Source: Candidatus Nanopelagicales bacterium
GTDB taxonomy: Bacteria; Actinomycetota; Actinomycetes; S36-B12
Direction: 5' to 3'
NCBI GenBank assembly: GCA_030827125.1
Contig: JAURFD010000003.1
Coordinates: 65,607 to 129,606 of the forward strand
Length of the DNA stretch: 64,000 nucleotides
Below are positions 32,842 through 38,534 of this stretch, piece by piece. The notes below the pieces were generated by a model. The model was not told the origin of the DNA, searched no databases, and worked only from the letters and a program-made list of their open reading frames with translations. The stretch's first letter is position 1. The number at the start of each line of letters is the position of its first letter. Position numbers and translations under genes: made by a program.

Positions 32842-34260
32842 ATGTCAGCAGGGTGGCGCGATCGCAGCGAAGCGAGCGAGTGCTCGTGGGATTCGCTGCC
32901 GCCCGGCCCGGGCTTGGCAGCAAAGTTGGCCGAGATCGATCCCGGCACGCTTGATGACAGCGATCGCGTCGCCTACCTCGCGGCGACTGACCGGCTTCTG
33001 GGCTGGAGCCACATGCTTCAAGCCAAGGCGTTGGTCGCGGTGTCCGATGCCGTGTGCGCCGCCACGGCGACACCGAACGTCGAGTTCTCGTCGCATCAGC
33101 AGGGCTGGGTCGCCGACGAGGTCGCGGCGGCGTTACACATTGCGGCACGCACGGCGACGGGCAGGGTCAACGCCGCGAGCGCCCTGGTGCGCGACTGGCC
33201 ACGTCTCGGCGAGGCCGTAGCTTCCGGGGAGTTGACCCTCGGGCAAGCCCGTGAGGTCTACGAAGCAGCGTCGATCCTGTCGGGCTGTGCCGACGAGACC
33301 GGCGCCGACCTCTCCGACCGCGCGGTGGAGATGTCGATGTTCTTCGCCCGTGATCTGCCGCCCGCGCGACTTCGTGAGCGCATGAACCGTCTGGTGTCCT
33401 CACTCGATCCGGAGGCCGCCACGCGGCGCCGGCGGCGAGCAGAGCGGGACCGCACTGACGTCTCGATGTGGGCCGAGGCAGACGGGATCGCCTGCCTGTC
33501 AGCCCGCGGTCCGTCCCTGGACACGGTGGCCGTCCGGGACCTGATCGACGCGCGGGCCCGCGCCATGCGCCAGGCCGCCGACGAGGGCGACGACCGCACC
33601 CTCGGCCAGTGGCGCCATGCAGCCCTGCTGAGCGCTTTTGGGCTCGCTCCGGTGGGTCGCGTTGGTGTGCGTCGGGCAGGCGACGAGTCCACGGCGACGG
33701 CTTTGAGCGAGCCAGCGTCTGTCGTGGACGATCCCCCGCTCACTCACCCGGATGTGCAGATCCGGGTCACCGTTCCCCTGACCACCCTCTTCGGCCTGAC
33801 CGACACACCCGGTGAACTCGAGGGTTTCGGTCCACTGGACCCGGAGTTGGTGCGCGCTCTAGCCGCCGATGCACAGTGGCAGCGCTGGGTGACCGATCCG
33901 GTCGGCGACTACCTCATCGACGAGGGTCGACAGCGGTTCCCCGGTGCGCGCCTGGCTCGGTTCCTGCGTGCCCGTGAGTCGCGCTGCAAGCACCCGTCCT
34001 GCGGTGTGCGCTCTCGCAACTGCGACGCAGACCACCTGCCGGCCTTCGGTGCGGGTGGCCAGACGTCCGCCCAGGGTCTGTCCCCCACCTGCCCGCGCCA
34101 CAATCGCGGCCGGGTCGCTTCCGGGTGGAGGGTTGAGGAGGATGGGCCGAAGGATCCACACGGTCCGCCCGACCCGATCTGGGTGAGCACACTAGGGCGG
34201 CGCTACGAGAACTCGATGCCCGCCGTGTTCACCGACGACTACATACCCCTCCGGAGATAA
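32842..34260 (+). CDS. DUF222 / HNH endonuclease (REP13E12-type) protein
   Basis: An N-terminal DUF222-like region is followed by a C-terminal HNH motif (CKHPSCGVRSRNCDADHLPAFGAGGQTSAQGLSPTCPRHN). Confidence 0.85.
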   Translation: MSAGWRDRSEASECSWDSLPPGPGLAAKLAEIDPGTLDDSDRVAYLAATDRLLGWSHMLQAKALVAVSDAVCAATATPNVEFSSHQQGWVADEVAAALHIAARTATGRVNAASALVRDWPRLGEAVASGELTLGQAREVYEAASILSGCADETGADLSDRAVEMSMFFARDLPPARLRERMNRLVSSLDPEAATRRRRRAERDRTDVSMWAEADGIACLSARGPSLDTVAVRDLIDARARAMRQAADEGDDRTLGQWRHAALLSAFGLAPVGRVGVRRAGDESTATALSEPASVVDDPPLTHPDVQIRVTVPLTTLFGLTDTPGELEGFGPLDPELVRALAADAQWQRWVTDPVGDYLIDEGRQRFPGARLARFLRARESRCKHPSCGVRSRNCDADHLPAFGAGGQTSAQGLSPTCPRHNRGRVASGWRVEEDGPKDPHGPPDPIWVSTLGRRYENSMPAVFTDDYIPLRR

Positions 34261-35375: not shown

Positions 35376-35521
35376 TCTGCGCTGATATCCATCCACCGCA
35401 CCACCGAGTCCTCGGCGTACATGCCCACCGCTCCCCGGCGTTCGGAATACGGCAGGTCATAGGCGACGAGGAACTCCCCGTTGACGCGGCAGCGTGTCTC
35501 GGTGAGTCCACATAGGGCTTC

Positions 35522-35836
35522 TCATCGCGGGCCCTGCTCTGCTCCGTATCCCGCGAATTCAAGAACTTCCCGACGGGAGAACGAAGGTCCGAACTGTTCG
35601 GGCGCCGGCCCCTCTCCGAGGAGGTGCTCGAACGCGGCCACGATGCGCTCGGCAGCATGTCCATCACCGAACGGATTGACCGCGTCGACCATCCGGGCGC
35701 GTTCTTCGGGGTGATCTAGCAACTCCAGGGCGTTCTGCTCGATCGCCTGCGGATCGGTGCCCACCAGTCGCAGAGTGCCGGCGCGCAGGCCCTCATGCCG
35801 TTCGGTGACATCCCGGCACACGAGCACCGGCTTCAC
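35522..35836 (-). pseudogene. wecB: UDP-N-acetylglucosamine 2-epimerase, detached C-terminal fragment
   Basis: KPVLVCRDVTERHEGLRAGTLRLVGTDPQAIEQNALELLD...NPFGDGHAAERIV is the C-terminal ~70 residues of non-hydrolysing epimerases. It lacks its own N-terminal 325 codons. Confidence 0.85.
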
Positions 35837-35848
35837 GACACCGGTATT

Positions 35849-35857
35849 AGGTGTCGG
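35849..35857. repeat. direct repeat copy 1 (AGGTGTCGG) at the insertion edge
   Basis: It is an exact match to 36780-36788 and lies 13 nt beyond the stop of the pentapeptide gene. Confidence 0.8.
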
Positions 35858-35870
35858 TGTGTCGTCTCTG

Positions 35871-36701
35871 TCAGCAGTCGCTGTTATTGGTGCTGCCGTC
35901 CGGCATCGTCGTGTTGCAGAAAACCGCGCCGGTCAGGTCCGCGCCATTCAGGTTTGCGCCGTTCAGGCTCGCGTTGGTCAGGTTTGCGCCGCTCAGGTAC
36001 GCGCCGGTCAGGTTCGCGCCGTTCAGGTACGCGCCGTTCAGGTACGCGCCGGTCAGGCTCGCCCCGGTCAGGTTCGCGCCGTTCAGGTGCGCGCCGTTCA
36101 GGCCCGCGTTGAGCAGGCCCGCACCGGTCAGGTTCGCGCCGGTCAGGCTCGCGCCATTCAGGTTCGTGTAGTACAGGGCCGCGTTGGTCAGGTTCGCACC
36201 GGTCAGGTTCGCACCGGTCAGGGTCGCGCCGGTTAGGGTCGCGTTGGTCAGGTTCGCGCCGGTCAGGTTCGCGCCGTACAGGTCTGCGTTTTGACAGTTG
36301 GGATCGCAGGCGGGTCCCGCCCGCATCACGCGACCGCGTGGTCTGCTTGATCTGGTGGGACTAAAGTTTGCCCCCACCAAGGATGCATCTTGCAGCTGTG
36401 CGTGGCGTAGGACCACTGCCCGGAAGTTGGCCTCGTTCAGGCGCGCACCCCGCAGATCGGCTCCTTGGAGTTTGGCCCGAGCGAACTTCGCCCCTCGAAG
36501 GTCACCATGATGTGTAAACGTCCACTTCTGGACCACGTCCCGGCAGTCCGCCCCGGGTCCGGGCACACAGGCGATTTTGCCGGTGCCGATCCGATCCCCC
36601 GGTGCCGCCGCCACCGCCGGGGCGATCAAACCGCCCGCCAACACAACCCCGGCAGACCCTGCCACCAACACCCGACGCCACCACACACCCTGTCCAGTCA
36701 T
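35871..36701 (-). CDS. exported pentapeptide-repeat protein
   Basis: A signal peptide with twin Arg is present (MTGQGVWWRRVLVAGSAGVVLAGGLIAPAVAAAP). The body has 10 plus 24 consecutive A(D/N)LxG-type pentapeptides and Cys-containing caps. The ATG at 36701 is preferred, and GTG at 36737 is possible. Confidence 0.8.
   Translation of the reverse strand: MTGQGVWWRRVLVAGSAGVVLAGGLIAPAVAAAPGDRIGTGKIACVPGPGADCRDVVQKWTFTHHGDLRGAKFARAKLQGADLRGARLNEANFRAVVLRHAQLQDASLVGANFSPTRSSRPRGRVMRAGPACDPNCQNADLYGANLTGANLTNATLTGATLTGANLTGANLTNAALYYTNLNGASLTGANLTGAGLLNAGLNGAHLNGANLTGASLTGAYLNGAYLNGANLTGAYLSGANLTNASLNGANLNGADLTGAVFCNTTMPDGSTNNSDC
35928..36287 (-). repeat. 24 tandem 15-bp units (coding pentapeptide repeats)
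   Basis: The sequence is visibly periodic, e.g. GCGCCGGTCAGGTTC and GCGCCGTTCAGGTAC. Each 15-bp unit encodes ANLTG, AYLNG and similar pentapeptides on the minus strand. Confidence 0.9.
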
Positions 36702-36779
36702 TCCGCGACCGTAACCGGCCCACGCAACGCAGTCCACCCCACACGACGAAAACCCCCGACGACGGACACACCAGGGTCA

Positions 36780-36788
36780 AGGTGTCGG
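36780..36788. repeat. direct repeat copy 2 (AGGTGTCGG) at the insertion edge
   Basis: It is an exact match to 35849-35857 and lies at the point where epimerase homology stops (…EEGPSVGTP). Confidence 0.8.
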
Positions 36789-37761
36789 GGGTCCCGACGC
36801 TTGGGCCCTCCTCCTGGATTCCCCCGGAGTCCGAGATAGCCAGCGTCGCCGCCTTGAGCAAGCGGGCGAATACCGCGTAGTCCAGTGGCTCGGTGATGAT
36901 CACATTGGGGAGTGGATCGAGGATCGGCCGCATCTCGTGCGCCACTCGGGGATTGGGATGCAGCGGCAGGACCGCAGTGAGATCCGGCCGCGCCCGGCAC
37001 ACGCGCGCAACGCCCTCCGCAATGCCGGCCAGCCCCCCGCCCCAATTCTCGCGTCGATGCGCCGTGACAACGAGGAGCGGCCGTCCGTCATCAACGCCCT
37101 CAAGTCGAGCGTCGGGCCATGGTGCCTGGAGATTCGCGGCCCACTGCAAGGCATCAATGCCGGTATTGCCACTGACGAAGATGAGTTCGCCGGAGATACC
37201 TTCGCGAATCAGCGACTCCTTGTTGTCGAGTGTGGGCGCAATGTGGAAGGAGGACAGGGTCGTGAGCACTCGACGGTTCAGTTCTTCGGGGAACGGCATG
37301 AGCATGTTGTTGGAACGAAGTCCGGCCTCCAGATGGAAGACCGGTAGCCGCGCGTTCGCCGACGCGAGCCCCGCAGCCATGGCCGAGGTCGTGTCGCCGT
37401 GGACCAGCGTGAAACCGGGAAACGCACCCTCGCCGCCCTCGACGGCACCCTGCAATCTCGGCCGACCGCGGCGTTCGGCGACTCCACCCCGCAACTCCTT
37501 CAGCAGGTCCTCGATTGCACGCACCACGCGGTAGGTAACGCCGTTCAGGGTCTGCTCCGGCCGCGCCACGGCAAGGTCGACATCGGGCTCGACGCCTGCA
37601 AGCCTGAGGACGTCGTTCACCAAGTCCTCATGCTGACCGGTCGAAACGACCACCGGACGAATTGATTCGGAGTCACGCAAAGCGAGGATGACCGGGAGCA
37701 CCTTGATCGCCTCTGGCCGGGTGCCGACGACGATCAGGCACGGTGTTTGAGGCTTTGCCAT
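36787..37761 (-). pseudogene. wecB: UDP-N-acetylglucosamine 2-epimerase, N-terminal 325 codons (truncated by insertion)
   Basis: MAKPQTPCLIVVGTRPEAIKVLPV...HGDTTSAMAAGLA...HLEAGLRS...VTAHRRENWG...ISDSGGIQEEGPSVGTP is collinear with WecB/MnaA. The ORF then reads through ~95 unrelated codons to a stop at 36502. Confidence 0.85.
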
Positions 37762-37802: not shown

Positions 37803-38534
37803 ATGAGGTATCGCGTAGCCTTGGCGATCGTGAGCGACGCGACCACCCCCACGGGACGCCTGTTCCGGTCGCTGCGTGCCGAAGGCTCAGCCGCCGACAA
37901 CGCGGTCCCCGCCCTCTCCCTTGATGAGGTGGTCGGGTTGCGCAGCGTGAGTCTGGCCAGCACGCACACTCCTGAGCCAACCCCGGAGGTCGTGACCGAA
38001 TCAGGCACGATGCCCGATCTGCCACCCGTGCCGGCGGCACCGACACCGGAACCCTTCGTCGCGCCGCCCCCGGCCGCACCTGCCCCCGTCGACGTCCTGA
38101 CGGGGGGTGCCGCAACTCCCCCACCACCGCGACGGGGAGGCGCGCACGCCCAGCGAGGTATCGGCGCGGGCAGTGTCTGGCTCATCGTCATCGGAGTCAC
38201 CGTCGTCATGGCCTTCGCCGACGCGCTGGTCATGAGGCAGGTCGGCCTGGGGTGGCTCACCGGAGTCGCCCTCGTCGTCGCGAGCGTCTACGCAGCATTC
38301 ACCGTCCGCATCGATGACGCGATCATCGCAGTCGTCGCGCCGCCACTGGCGTTCTTCCTCGCCACGTTGACCGCCGGTCAACTCACCGTGAGCACATCCG
38401 GAGACCTACTCGTCAACGAGGCCTTCATGATCGTGACGACCTTGGGCACCAACGCCCTATGGATCTTCGGGGCGACCATCGCAGCCCTCATCATCGTCCT
38501 GGTGCGTCGCGGGCTCAGCCGCCGGCAGCCTTAA
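37803..38534 (+). CDS. membrane protein (DUF6542-like) with Pro-rich N-terminal region
   Basis: The C-terminal half has 4 TM helices ([20 protein letters not shown]..., [15 protein letters not shown]...). The true start is uncertain. Confidence 0.55.

What the first reader, a model, noticed from the sequence alone, without database searches (positions are those of the whole stretch)
35834..36800. wecB-like epimerase gene split by a ~0.95 kb single-gene insertion with a perfect 9-bp direct repeat at both edges and no recombinase
The minus-strand ORF 36502..37761 is a normal non-hydrolysing UDP-GlcNAc 2-epimerase for 325 codons, ending ...ISDSGGIQEEGPSVGTP, and then becomes unrelated sequence. 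The missing C-terminus (KPVLVCRDVTERHEG...NPFGDGHAAERIV) lies on the same strand at 35522..35833, 959 nt away and out of frame. In intact family members these halves abut (SGGIQEEAPSLGKPVLV.RD.TERPE, recalled from memory). The intervening DNA holds exactly one gene, an exported pentapeptide-repeat protein in the same orientation. That gene starts ~80-90 nt inside one edge and stops 13 nt from the other. No transposase or integrase is present.

AGGTGTCGG occurs at 35849-35857 and again at 36780-36788, i.e. at both junctions. Just inside lies an 11/12 inverted match (GGTGTGTCGTC at 35856-35866 versus GACGACGGACACACC at 36758-36772).

Removing the interval plus one direct-repeat copy does not restore the frame, since it gives ...GTPDT followed by TAA. 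Joining after GTC GGG (36793) to AAG CCG (35833) would recreate PSVG-KPVLV, and the flanks at those points are a degenerate 8-mer (GCGTCGGG / GTGTCGTG). The geometry fits a transposase-less mobile insertion cassette (a MITE-like element with cargo). It also fits a microhomology-mediated capture event. Either way, a gene-sized, near-precise insertion of a secreted repeat protein into a cell-envelope sugar gene is unusual, and I do not recognise it as a described element.
Basis: partly seen in the sequence, partly recalled or inferred. Interest (0 to 1): 0.8.

Follow-up and report, generated by a model that had tools for sequence, protein, structure and literature searches.

The report
Single-gene cassette inserted into wecB
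A 959-bp self-contained gene cassette encoding a secreted pentapeptide-repeat protein has landed cleanly inside a cell-surface sugar gene (wecB) of an uncultured aquatic actinobacterium; sister strains still carry the intact gene, and the cassette belongs to a multi-copy family with no transposase of its own and an unknown way of moving.

Summary
wecB is split by a 959-nt insert (35832..36790). It carries one same-strand gene for an exported pentapeptide-repeat protein (PRP).

Sister contigs 99.4-99.7% identical in the flanks carry intact wecB. They give the exact empty site, AGCGTCGGGAC|GCCGGTGCTC. Nothing is duplicated and nothing is lost.

It lies inside the insert, in a motif (CCGACACC-loop-GGTGT..) present at both cassette ends and conserved in other copies.

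The cassette belongs to a family found next to many unrelated housekeeping genes, sometimes in head-to-tail arrays. Its 3' end (...GGTGTCGTGAA) is sharp in seven different continuations. Its 5' end is ragged in other copies.

No transposase or integrase lies in the cassette or the Pfam-scanned part of the window, and none was seen among the neighbours examined at other copies.

Three alleles coexist: intact; insertion only; and insertion plus a 3.8-kb deletion of three downstream glycan genes, which is the window's state.

The 10 nt left of the insertion point resemble the cassette's own 3' end (7/10; background 0.35%). I favour trans-mobilisation by an enzyme that recognises that end, but this is inferred. 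Break-repair capture of one array unit remains a serious rival.

The parts
36791..37761 (-). wecB 5' fragment (codons 1-323 plus the first two bases, AC, of Thr324), ending ...GCGTCGGGAC
   Evidence: Pfam PF02350 profile 68-280. It is collinear with intact alleles up to 36791.
35832..36790 (-). Inserted PRP cassette, 959 nt: CCCCGACACC...GGTGTCGTGAA
   Evidence: Absent from L111-L115 and L105, which read AGCGTCGGGAC|GCCGGTGCTC. The same 959 nt with the same junctions are in L106, L107 and L117.
36754..36790 (-). Left end (LE): CCCCGACACC-TTGACCCT-GGTGTGTCCGTCGTCGGGGG, followed by TTTTCG.
   Evidence: Flagged by the terminator-like scan; fold, with a weak z-score. The same LE is in L088, L089 and L118.
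36708..36736 (-). Putative promoter: -35 TGGACT (36731-36736), a 17-nt spacer, -10 TACGGT (36708-36713), then 6 nt to the ATG. This would give a leaderless mRNA.
   Evidence: Inference. This block is the part of the 5' region kept in nearly all copies. The -10 varies as TACGGT / TACGAT / TAGGAT / TACCTT, which is a TANNNT pattern. The E. coli-type consensus scan found nothing.
35871..36701 (-). PRP gene (276 aa from the ATG): signal-like N-terminus, a conserved Cys-containing N-domain, pentapeptide repeats, and a C-terminal CNTTMPDGSTNNSDC motif
   Evidence: Pfam PF00805. Homologues share the N-domain but differ in repeat number.
35925..36276 (-). 15-nt tandem periodicity (23.5 units) that encodes the pentapeptide repeats
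   Evidence: TRF; the repeat finder families D1 and D2.
35832..35870 (-). Right end (RE): CAGAGACGACACACCGACACC-TAATACC-GGTGTCGTGAA. The hairpin stem is CGACACC/GGTGTCG. It contains the second 9-mer copy (35849-35857).
   Evidence: Fold z -2.4 to -2.8. The end falls at the same nucleotide, within 1 nt, in seven different continuations.
35522..35831 (-). wecB 3' fragment (G of Thr324, then PVLVCRD... to the stop codon)
   Evidence: Pfam profile 279-346. It is collinear with the intact alleles from 35831.
35483..35489 (-). Scar of a 3.8-kb deletion at the microhomology CCGCGTC. The deletion removed three genes (651 aa unknown, 433-aa GT2, 246 aa unknown) between wecB and rmuC.
   Evidence: Both blastn alignments overlap on these 7 nt. 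The genes are present in L105, L111-L115, L117 and the 71% relative L001. GT2 Pfam match.

Best explanation
Shown. A 959-bp self-contained expression unit was inserted once into wecB, in the same orientation, in one lineage of an uncultured aquatic actinobacterium. Close relatives are labelled 'Candidatus Nanopelagicales bacterium'. The unit consists of an upstream hairpin followed by a T-run, a promoter-like block, a gene for an exported pentapeptide-repeat protein, and a downstream hairpin. The insertion lies between GGGAC and GCCGG, with no target duplication and no target loss. The inserted piece corresponds to exactly one period of the head-to-tail arrays in which this family occurs elsewhere: it begins where a preceding unit's right end (RE, ...GGTGTCGTGAA) would stop, and it ends with its own RE. 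The insertion inactivated wecB. A sub-lineage, which includes the window, then lost the three downstream glycan genes by a microhomology deletion.

Inferred. The unit carries no recombinase and is moved in trans by an enzyme that recognises the RE (hairpin plus GTGAA) and cuts just 3' of it. On this reading it releases RE-to-RE unit lengths and joins them next to sequences that resemble an RE end; here that sequence is GCGTCGGGAC. The chemistry that best fits no duplication, one sharp end, one ragged end and hairpins on one strand is a single-strand HUH-type nuclease/transferase of the IS200/IS605 or rolling-circle kind. No such enzyme has been identified.
For: - Empty site and exact junctions.
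- Same junctions in six independent assemblies, including the insertion-only allele L117.
- Family copies with the same N-domain, 5' region and RE sit next to unrelated genes: an ABC ATPase, whiB, qcrB, IclR, Fic, an SBBP-like gene, and loci next to der, MFS, chorismate-binding and other genes.
- Head-to-tail arrays: L088 has the junction GTCGTGAA|CCCGACACC, and L095 holds two units. L118 and L089 have decayed upstream units.
- The RE ends at the same nucleotide, within 1 nt, before seven different continuations: wecB, the next LE, L090, L095b, L099-type, L118 and L084.
- The 10 nt left of the insertion match the RE end at 7/10. The empirical frequency of such a match in the window is 0.0035.
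- The whiB fragment carried by the dispersed copies L083/L096 starts right after GTGTCGGGCG, which is also 7/10.
- No mobility gene in the cassette, in the 40 of 56 window proteins scanned, or among the neighbours examined at other copies.
Against: - No candidate enzyme was found. Whole genomes of the lineage could not be searched.
- The hairpins are short, their folding scores are weak (z -2.5 at best, many about 0), and they show no clear compensatory changes.
- Only one insertion has both a filled and an empty allele, so no target logo exists.
- The receiving site of L083 does not resemble an RE end (2/10).
- The left junction has one C more than the LE of L088, L089 and L118.
- The L087/L119 copy starts inside the LE with a 3-nt microhomology. 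The 5' ends of more distant copies are ragged. Both could also reflect plain illegitimate recombination and decay.
- Sharing of pieces between copies shows ordinary homologous recombination also shapes the family: L086 and L088 share a downstream flank but not an upstream one, and P0024 is a mosaic protein.
- The two 7/10 matches were noticed after the fact among about five boundaries examined.
Confidence: 0.42

Rival explanations
1. Recombinase-independent capture. A unit-length piece of a PRP array was joined into a break or stalled fork in wecB by end-joining (Ku/LigD) or by template switching. The piece could be a linear fragment, or a circle popped out by recombination between repeats. 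The resemblance between GCGTCGGGAC and GTGTCGTGAA guided the switch. The family otherwise spreads by ordinary duplication and recombination.
For: - The joins are blunt or share only 0-1 nt, and there is one extra C at the left junction. Both are typical of end-joining.
- The same lineage made a 3.8-kb deletion at a 7-nt microhomology 350 nt away.
- L087/L119 show a 5' junction inside the LE with a TTG microhomology.
- Tandem arrays and mosaic copies show frequent recombination.
- No mobility enzyme was found anywhere.
Against: - Random breakage should not place both donor breakpoints exactly at successive RE ends.
- It also should not make the RE end at the same nucleotide in seven unrelated continuations.
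- A template switch would have to extend from a mismatched 3' terminus (C against A).
Confidence: 0.3
2. Site-specific recombination by a host tyrosine or serine recombinase (Xer-like or integron-like). It would act between the palindromic array or circle junction GGTGTCG-TGAACC-CGACACC and a look-alike site in wecB, AGCGTCG-GGACGC-CGGTGCT.
For: - The array junction is a 7-6-7 inverted repeat with the crossover point inside its spacer.
- The wecB site is itself an imperfect palindrome, and its left arm matches at 5/7.
- Cassettes share junctions in arrays, as dif modules do (PMC6449649).
Against: - The right arm matches at only 3/7.
- The spacers differ, and the switch falls mid-spacer at both junctions with one extra base. 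Staggered cuts would not give that.
- There is no dif-like or GTTRRRY core.
- The cassette has its own promoter, unlike integron cassettes.
- No integrase lies nearby.
Confidence: 0.1
3. Retroposition. Array or read-through transcripts are processed or terminated at the RE hairpin, copied into cDNA by a cellular reverse transcriptase, and integrated. This would give a fixed 3' end and variable, sometimes truncated, 5' ends.
For: - The 3' end is sharp and the 5' ends are ragged.
- A 5'-truncated fragment of the upstream whiB gene is carried in L083/L096.
- One 5' junction has a microhomology (L087).
Against: - The cassette includes its own promoter and an upstream terminator-like hairpin, which its own mRNA would not contain.
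- No reverse transcriptase was seen.
- No such process is established for bacterial cellular genes.
Confidence: 0.07
4. Classical MITE-like mobile insertion cassette: terminal inverted repeats recognised by a DDE transposase supplied in trans, with the 9-bp repeat as the target duplication.
For: - The LE and the reverse complement of the RE are imperfect inverted copies (CGACACC ... GGTGTGTC(C)GTC).
- A PRP gene inside a transposase-less mic element is known (mic-qnrD, PMC3913671).
Against: - The empty-site alleles show no target duplication at all.
- The 9-mer lies inside the insert and is conserved in other copies.
Confidence: 0.03

Closest known systems
Mobile insertion cassettes (MIC231 of Bacillus cereus; mic-qnrD and mic-qnrS2)
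   Same: They are gene-sized, have no transposase, carry a cargo gene with its own promoter, and are bounded by inverted-repeat ends. In mic-qnrD the cargo is also a pentapeptide-repeat protein (PMC3913671).
   Different: MICs have 24-bp or longer terminal inverted repeats derived from a known IS, and they make a target duplication (2 bp for mic-qnrD). Here there is no duplication and no IS partner is known. The ends are hairpins set 3-4 nt in from the termini, units form head-to-tail arrays, and the cargo is a secreted PRP rather than a cytoplasmic Qnr.
IS200/IS605 family and its transposase-less derivatives (PATEs; REP/RAYT; IS605 stem-loops next to Borrelia lipoprotein genes, PMC2775950)
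   Same: There is no target duplication and no target loss. Hairpins lie near both ends on the same strand. Insertion is next to a short sequence that resembles the element's own cleavage site. Derivatives are mobilised in trans.
   Different: No TnpA/Y1 partner was found. The left flanks are only loosely similar (GGGAC here, GTGAA in arrays). The hairpins are weak. The cargo is a full expression unit of about 0.9 kb. One end is ragged in many copies, which is not typical of IS200/IS605.
Rolling-circle elements (IS91/ISCR, Helitrons)
   Same: There is no target duplication. One end is sharply defined with a nearby hairpin while the other is variable. Adjacent DNA is co-mobilised, as with the whiB fragment in L083/L096.
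   Different: No Rep/Y2 gene was seen, there is no GTTC/CTTG or A|T target, and the polarity of the variable end relative to the target does not match IS91.
Xer-dependent dif modules of Acinetobacter plasmids and integron gene cassettes
   Same: They are single- or few-gene modules without a recombinase of their own, arranged in arrays that share junction sites.
   Different: There are no 28-bp XerC/XerD sites and no attC with a GTTRRRY core. The cassettes are chromosomal and dispersed next to housekeeping genes. Each has its own promoter. The host is an actinobacterium.

Membership tests
Non-hydrolysing UDP-GlcNAc 2-epimerase (WecB/MnaA, Pfam PF02350) | A full-length match to the Epimerase_2 profile, formed by the two fragments taken together | tested here: met
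   The N fragment covers profile 68-280 and the C fragment covers 279-346. Intact 426-aa alleles are 98-99% identical.
Pentapeptide-repeat proteins (PF00805) | Tandem A(D/N)LXX repeats that score above the Pfam threshold | tested here: met
   E 4.3e-51, 170 bits against a cut-off of 20.2. The 15-nt DNA periodicity runs for 23.5 units.
DDE-type MITE / mobile insertion cassette | A target-site duplication flanking the element | tested here: not met
   The empty site AGCGTCGGGAC|GCCGGTGCTC, compared with both junctions, shows 0 bp duplicated.
DDE-type MITE / mobile insertion cassette | Terminal inverted repeats that match those of an autonomous IS | tested here: inconclusive
   The ends are imperfect inverted copies (about 18 matched positions over about 33). 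No IS with such ends was found in the window, the loci, the plasmid collection or the viral collection.
IS200/IS605-derived non-autonomous element (PATE-like) | Subterminal hairpins at both ends on the same strand, and no target duplication | tested here: inconclusive
   The absence of a duplication is met. Hairpins are present, but the RE gives only z about -2.5 and the LE about -0.6 to -1.0.
IS200/IS605-derived non-autonomous element (PATE-like) | Insertion 3' of one conserved tetra- or pentanucleotide | tested here: inconclusive
   Only one flank is independent of arrays (GGGAC|). Array junctions read GTGAA| or GTCAA|.
IS200/IS605-derived non-autonomous element (PATE-like) | A cognate Y1 HUH transposase elsewhere in the genome | not testable with these tools
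   Only the 64-kb window and short loci were available. None encodes one among the proteins scanned.
Integron gene cassette | An attC site with a GTTRRRY core at the 3' end, a promoterless cassette, and IntI | tested here: not met
   There is no GTTRRRY at either boundary, and a conserved promoter-like block lies inside the cassette. No integrase is in the scanned part of the window.
Xer-dependent dif module | 28-bp XerC-6-XerD sites bounding the module | tested here: not met
   The ends are 7-bp arms with 7-8-nt loops, and no dif-like 11-6-11 site is present. This is my reading against the dif architecture as I recall it.

The most novel reading that the evidence does not exclude
The PRP cassettes are a previously undescribed class of non-autonomous mobile element in abundant uncultured aquatic actinobacteria. 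They would be promoter-bearing single-gene units defined essentially by one hairpin-containing 3' end. A trans-acting end-specific enzyme (HUH-type, or an RNA-mediated route) would cut them out as RE-to-RE unit lengths. They would be pasted without target duplication next to RE-like sequences, building arrays of diversifying secreted repeat proteins and occasionally knocking out genes such as wecB.
Probability: 0.3. Interest if true: 0.75.

Novelty: new variant of a known kind. Interest (0 to 1): 0.55.

Why it matters
If the cassette is truly mobile, it shows that a cargo gene with its own promoter can spread through core chromosomes of streamlined aquatic actinobacteria with nothing but about 40-nt hairpin ends. 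It would also point to an unidentified trans-acting enzyme.

Independently of mechanism, the locus is a clean natural allele series in one population: intact, then insertion, then insertion plus deletion. It documents stepwise loss of a cell-surface glycan pathway made up of WecB, a GT2 synthase-like glycosyltransferase and two unknown proteins. Such loci are often thought to be under phage or grazer selection.

The PRP family itself is unstudied. It is secreted, Cys-framed, variable in repeat number, arrayed, and recombining between copies.

Tried and rejected
- Looked in the window for a second copy of the cassette or its ends. None was found: blastn and regex found only self-hits and chance 15-20-mers.
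- The other four AGGTGTCGG sites have unrelated contexts.
- Searched plasmids by DNA. Only the generic repeat region (positions 502-866) matches PRP genes of Streptomyces, Ralstonia and others; the ends never match.
- Searched IMG/VR with two end motifs, the RE hairpin and the N-domain profile. The result was one chance 19-mer in an unrelated contig and no PRP relative. The cassette is therefore not phage-borne in that collection.
- Rfam on 35400-37000 gave nothing (one E=3.3 chance hit). PADLOC gave nothing for the PRP or the two unknown deleted proteins.
- The E. coli-type promoter scan gave no hit. The promoter proposal rests on conservation only.
- Tested whether the RE hairpin is supported by folding energy or covariation across subfamilies. 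Support is weak and inconsistent, so I do not claim a proven structure.
- Considered recombination between the LE and RE hairpin sites themselves, with the crossover in the loops. Rejected, because both complete hairpins are present at both junctions.
- Considered a serine-recombinase crossover at a shared GA dinucleotide. The predicted left junction does not match the observed one.
- Considered homologous recombination through flanking homology. wecB shares no homology with the donor flanks.
- The genome-contig scan returned only the 71%-identical relative L001 as a near neighbour. The informative alleles came from the protein-cluster route.
- The literature search for pentapeptide repeats in Nanopelagicales returned no papers.
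Full report
**1. What is in the sequence**

On the minus strand, the ORF 36502..37761 matches the UDP-GlcNAc 2-epimerase profile (PF02350) only through residue 325, at profile position 280. A separate 104-aa ORF at 35522..35836 supplies profile positions 279-346. Between them lies a single same-strand gene for a pentapeptide-repeat protein (PRP; PF00805, E 4e-51). It has a WWRR + hydrophobic + AxA N-terminus, a Cys-containing N-domain and a C-terminal CNTTMPDGSTNNSDC motif. The 9-mer AGGTGTCGG is at 35849 and 36780, as reported. G+C content does not set the insert apart.

**2. The empty site**

A protein search with the rejoined WecB found two things. One is the window's own read-through ORF (P0122, on 8 contigs from NCBI, JGI, ENA and Logan). 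The other is a set of intact enzymes: P0121 (417 aa, 98% identical) and P0245 (426 aa).

The contigs of the intact enzymes (L105, L111-L115) have the same neighbourhood: xseA, ispH, DUF6542, wecB ... rmuC, DUF222. In the flanks they are 96-97% (L105) or 99.4-99.7% (L111-L115) identical to the window. Every one reads AGCGTCGGGAC|GCCGGTGCTCGTG.

The window reads AGCGTCGGGAC|CCCCGACACCTTG on the left and GGTGTCGTGAA|GCCGGTGCTCGTG on the right. The insert is therefore 35832..36790, or 959 nt. Nothing is duplicated and nothing is lost, and the ancestral protein read PSVG-T-PVLV. A 71%-identical relative from another lineage (L001) reads the same.

Independent assemblies (L106, L107, L117) span both junctions with identical sequence. 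This is not an assembly artefact.

**3. An allele series**

In L105 and L111-L115, three genes follow intact wecB: an unknown 647/651-aa protein, a 433-aa GT2 glycosyltransferase and an unknown 246-aa protein. L001 has ORFs of similar sizes (652, 437 and 258 aa) in the same positions.

The window lacks these 3.8 kb. The two alignments overlap on CCGCGTC at 35483-35489, which is a microhomology deletion scar. L117 carries the same 959-nt insertion with the same junctions (99.4% identity over 1904 nt, no gaps) and still has the three genes.

So there was one insertion, followed in a sub-lineage by the deletion. All three states coexist in public metagenomes. The pathway lost is probably a ManNAc-dependent surface polymer. 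That is my inference from the presence of WecB together with a GT2 enzyme of the Glyco_trans_2_3 type.

**4. The insert belongs to a multi-copy family**

PRP homologues share a near-identical signal peptide and N-domain but differ in repeat number. Their loci put the gene in many unrelated places:
- fused to a truncated ABC ATPase (L081);
- downstream of whiB (L082/L093);
- downstream of qcrB (L083/L096);
- next to IclR (L084/85) and Fic (L086);
- abutting an SBBP-like repeat gene (L087/L119);
- in loci that also hold der, MFS, chorismate-binding, L,D-transpeptidase and other housekeeping genes.

No transposase, integrase or reverse transcriptase was found among the genes examined in any of these loci. 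The same holds for the window proteins that were examined. Pfam scans covered 40 of the 56 predicted proteins. Six more are identified from the same genes in sister contigs. One of the 56 (35851-36171, plus strand) is a spurious antisense call inside the PRP repeats.

The copies closest to the window's cassette (L086-L091) are 94-95.5% identical over the first 500 nt.

**5. Anatomy and boundaries of the cassette**

- *Conserved core.* Across copies the conserved core begins at about TCGTGTGGGGTGGACT. It contains a candidate -35 (TGGACT), a 17-nt spacer and a -10 that varies as TACGGT / TACGAT / TAGGAT / TACCTT. In most copies the ATG follows 6 nt later, which suggests a leaderless mRNA (inference).
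- *Left end (LE).* In the window's subfamily, CCCGACACC-TTGACCCT-GGTGTGTCCGTCGTCGGGGG-TTTTCG lies upstream of the core. The simple scan flags it as terminator-like.
- *Right end (RE).* After the stop codon comes CAGAGACGACACACCGACACC-TAATACC-GGTGTCGTGAA.
LE and the reverse complement of RE are thus imperfect inverted copies, and each end can form a small hairpin. The folding support is modest (z -2.5 at best).

L088 contains two units head to tail. Its junction is ...GGTGTCGTGAA|CCCGACACCTTGAC.... L095 also holds two units. L118 and L089 have decayed remains of an upstream unit.

The piece inserted in wecB is therefore exactly one period of such an array. It starts where a preceding RE would end and finishes with its own RE.

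The RE stops at the same nucleotide, within 1 nt, before seven different continuations: wecB, the next LE, L090, L095b, the L099 type, L118 and L084. The 5' side behaves differently. It starts at different points in different copies. The L087/L119 copy begins inside the LE with a TTG microhomology. L083/L096 carry a 5'-truncated whiB fragment taken from an L093-type locus to a different chromosomal place. The hairpin motif occurs nowhere except at PRP cassette ends in all the DNA I hold.

**6. A hint of target choice**

The 10 nt to the left of the insertion point (GCGTCGGGAC) match the RE end (GTGTCGTGAA) at 7 of 10 positions. Only 0.35% of positions in the window match that well.

The whiB fragment in L083/L096 starts immediately after GTGTCGGGCG in whiB, which is also 7/10. 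However, I noticed this second case after examining about five boundaries, and the receiving site of L083 does not resemble an RE end. Taken together this is suggestive, not proof.

**7. Mechanism**

Shown: one discrete insertion, no duplication, no loss, unit-length, no recombinase in the cassette, membership of a family with a sharply defined 3' end.

Inferred: how it was joined.

I rank first (about 0.4) trans-mobilisation by an enzyme that recognises the RE and cuts just 3' of it. HUH-type single-strand chemistry (IS200/IS605-like or rolling-circle-like) is the best fit to four features: no duplication, hairpins on one strand, one sharp and one ragged end, and a target that mimics the element's end.

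Second (about 0.3) is capture of an array unit by end-joining or template switching without a dedicated recombinase. The blunt joins, the extra C at the left junction and the nearby microhomology deletion support this. The coincidence of breakpoints with RE ends argues against it.

Tyrosine/serine site-specific recombination at the palindromic array junction (about 0.1) and retroposition of processed transcripts (about 0.07) are less likely. A DDE-type MITE/MIC with a target duplication is contradicted by the empty site.

**8. Comparison with known systems**

In concept the nearest are mobile insertion cassettes. mic-qnrD even carries a pentapeptide-repeat gene with its own promoter and no transposase. 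But it has 24-bp inverted repeats and a 2-bp duplication (PMC3913671).

In junction chemistry the nearest are IS200/IS605 derivatives. IS605 stem-loops have been found attached to Borrelia lipoprotein genes (PMC2775950). Array organisation recalls dif modules (PMC6449649) and integron cassettes, but their defining sites are absent here.

I found no paper linking pentapeptide-repeat genes with Nanopelagicales.

**9. Verdict**

The "perfect 9-bp direct repeat at both edges" is not a footprint of insertion. The event itself is ordinary micro-evolution: a surface-glycan gene knocked out, followed by operon decay. What is of moderate interest is the vehicle. It is a transposase-less expression cassette that builds arrays, makes no target duplication, and has an unidentified mobilisation mechanism.

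Noticed in passing
window 35483-35489 (compare L111 7321-11132): A 3.8-kb deletion relative to sister alleles removes three genes between wecB and rmuC: an unknown 651-aa protein, a 433-aa GT2 glycosyltransferase and an unknown 246-aa protein. The junction lies at the 7-nt microhomology CCGCGTC. Allele L117 has the cassette but not the deletion.
   Followed up: yes
window 38043-38069, inside the DUF6542 gene 37803..38534 (+): An in-frame indel of about 30 nt in the Pro/Ala-rich linker. The protein is 243 aa in the window and in L106/L107, and 233 aa in the intact-wecB alleles L105 and L111-L114.
   Followed up: partly
window 32842-34260 (+): A 472-aa DUF222 protein whose C-terminal sequence looks HNH-like to me. 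From memory it resembles the actinobacterial REP13E12 / 13E12-repeat type. It lies next to rmuC and is present at the same place in all alleles, so it is not linked to the insertion.
   Followed up: partly
window 18046, 19915, 41120, 63564: The 9-mer AGGTGTCGG occurs 6 times in the window against 0.94 expected from shuffles. The four copies outside the cassette have unrelated contexts and no hairpin partner. The excess is unexplained.
   Followed up: partly
L082 about 205-250 and about 990-1040 (also L093, L097/L098, L092): In a second cassette subfamily, an imperfect direct repeat of about 48 nt flanks the PRP gene. It derives from the 3' end of whiB (CCGC(C/T)GCACCCG(C/T)CTCG..GGTGATTCGTC..CTG.TGGGGGG). 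The repeated array unit there seems to include a piece of whiB.
   Followed up: partly
L083 about 5834 and L096 about 3831, compared with L093 3778: A dispersed PRP copy downstream of qcrB carries a 5'-truncated whiB fragment of about 130 nt. The fragment begins right after GTGTCGGGCG in the source gene, a sequence that resembles the cassette's 3' end.
   Followed up: partly
L081 5866-7290, and L101: In L081 a gene caller fused a truncated ABC-transporter ATPase (through ...ALAR) in frame to a PRP cassette, giving a 474-aa chimera. The rest of the ATPase is not downstream, and a tRNA gene lies nearby. L101 shares the downstream flank but has a different upstream flank, with a perfect 12-bp hairpin before the cassette.
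   Followed up: partly
L086 against L088 and L091: The three contigs share the same downstream flank but hold either one PRP gene preceded by a Fic gene (L086) or two PRP genes in tandem (L088). PRP proteins such as P0024 are mosaics of two subfamilies. This points to frequent recombination among copies.
   Followed up: partly
window 35834-35836: The last bases of the cassette together with the first base of the target (GTGAA|G) create an in-frame GTG. That is why the wecB 3' fragment appears as a 104-aa ORF. No ribosome-binding site precedes it, so it is probably coincidental.
   Followed up: no
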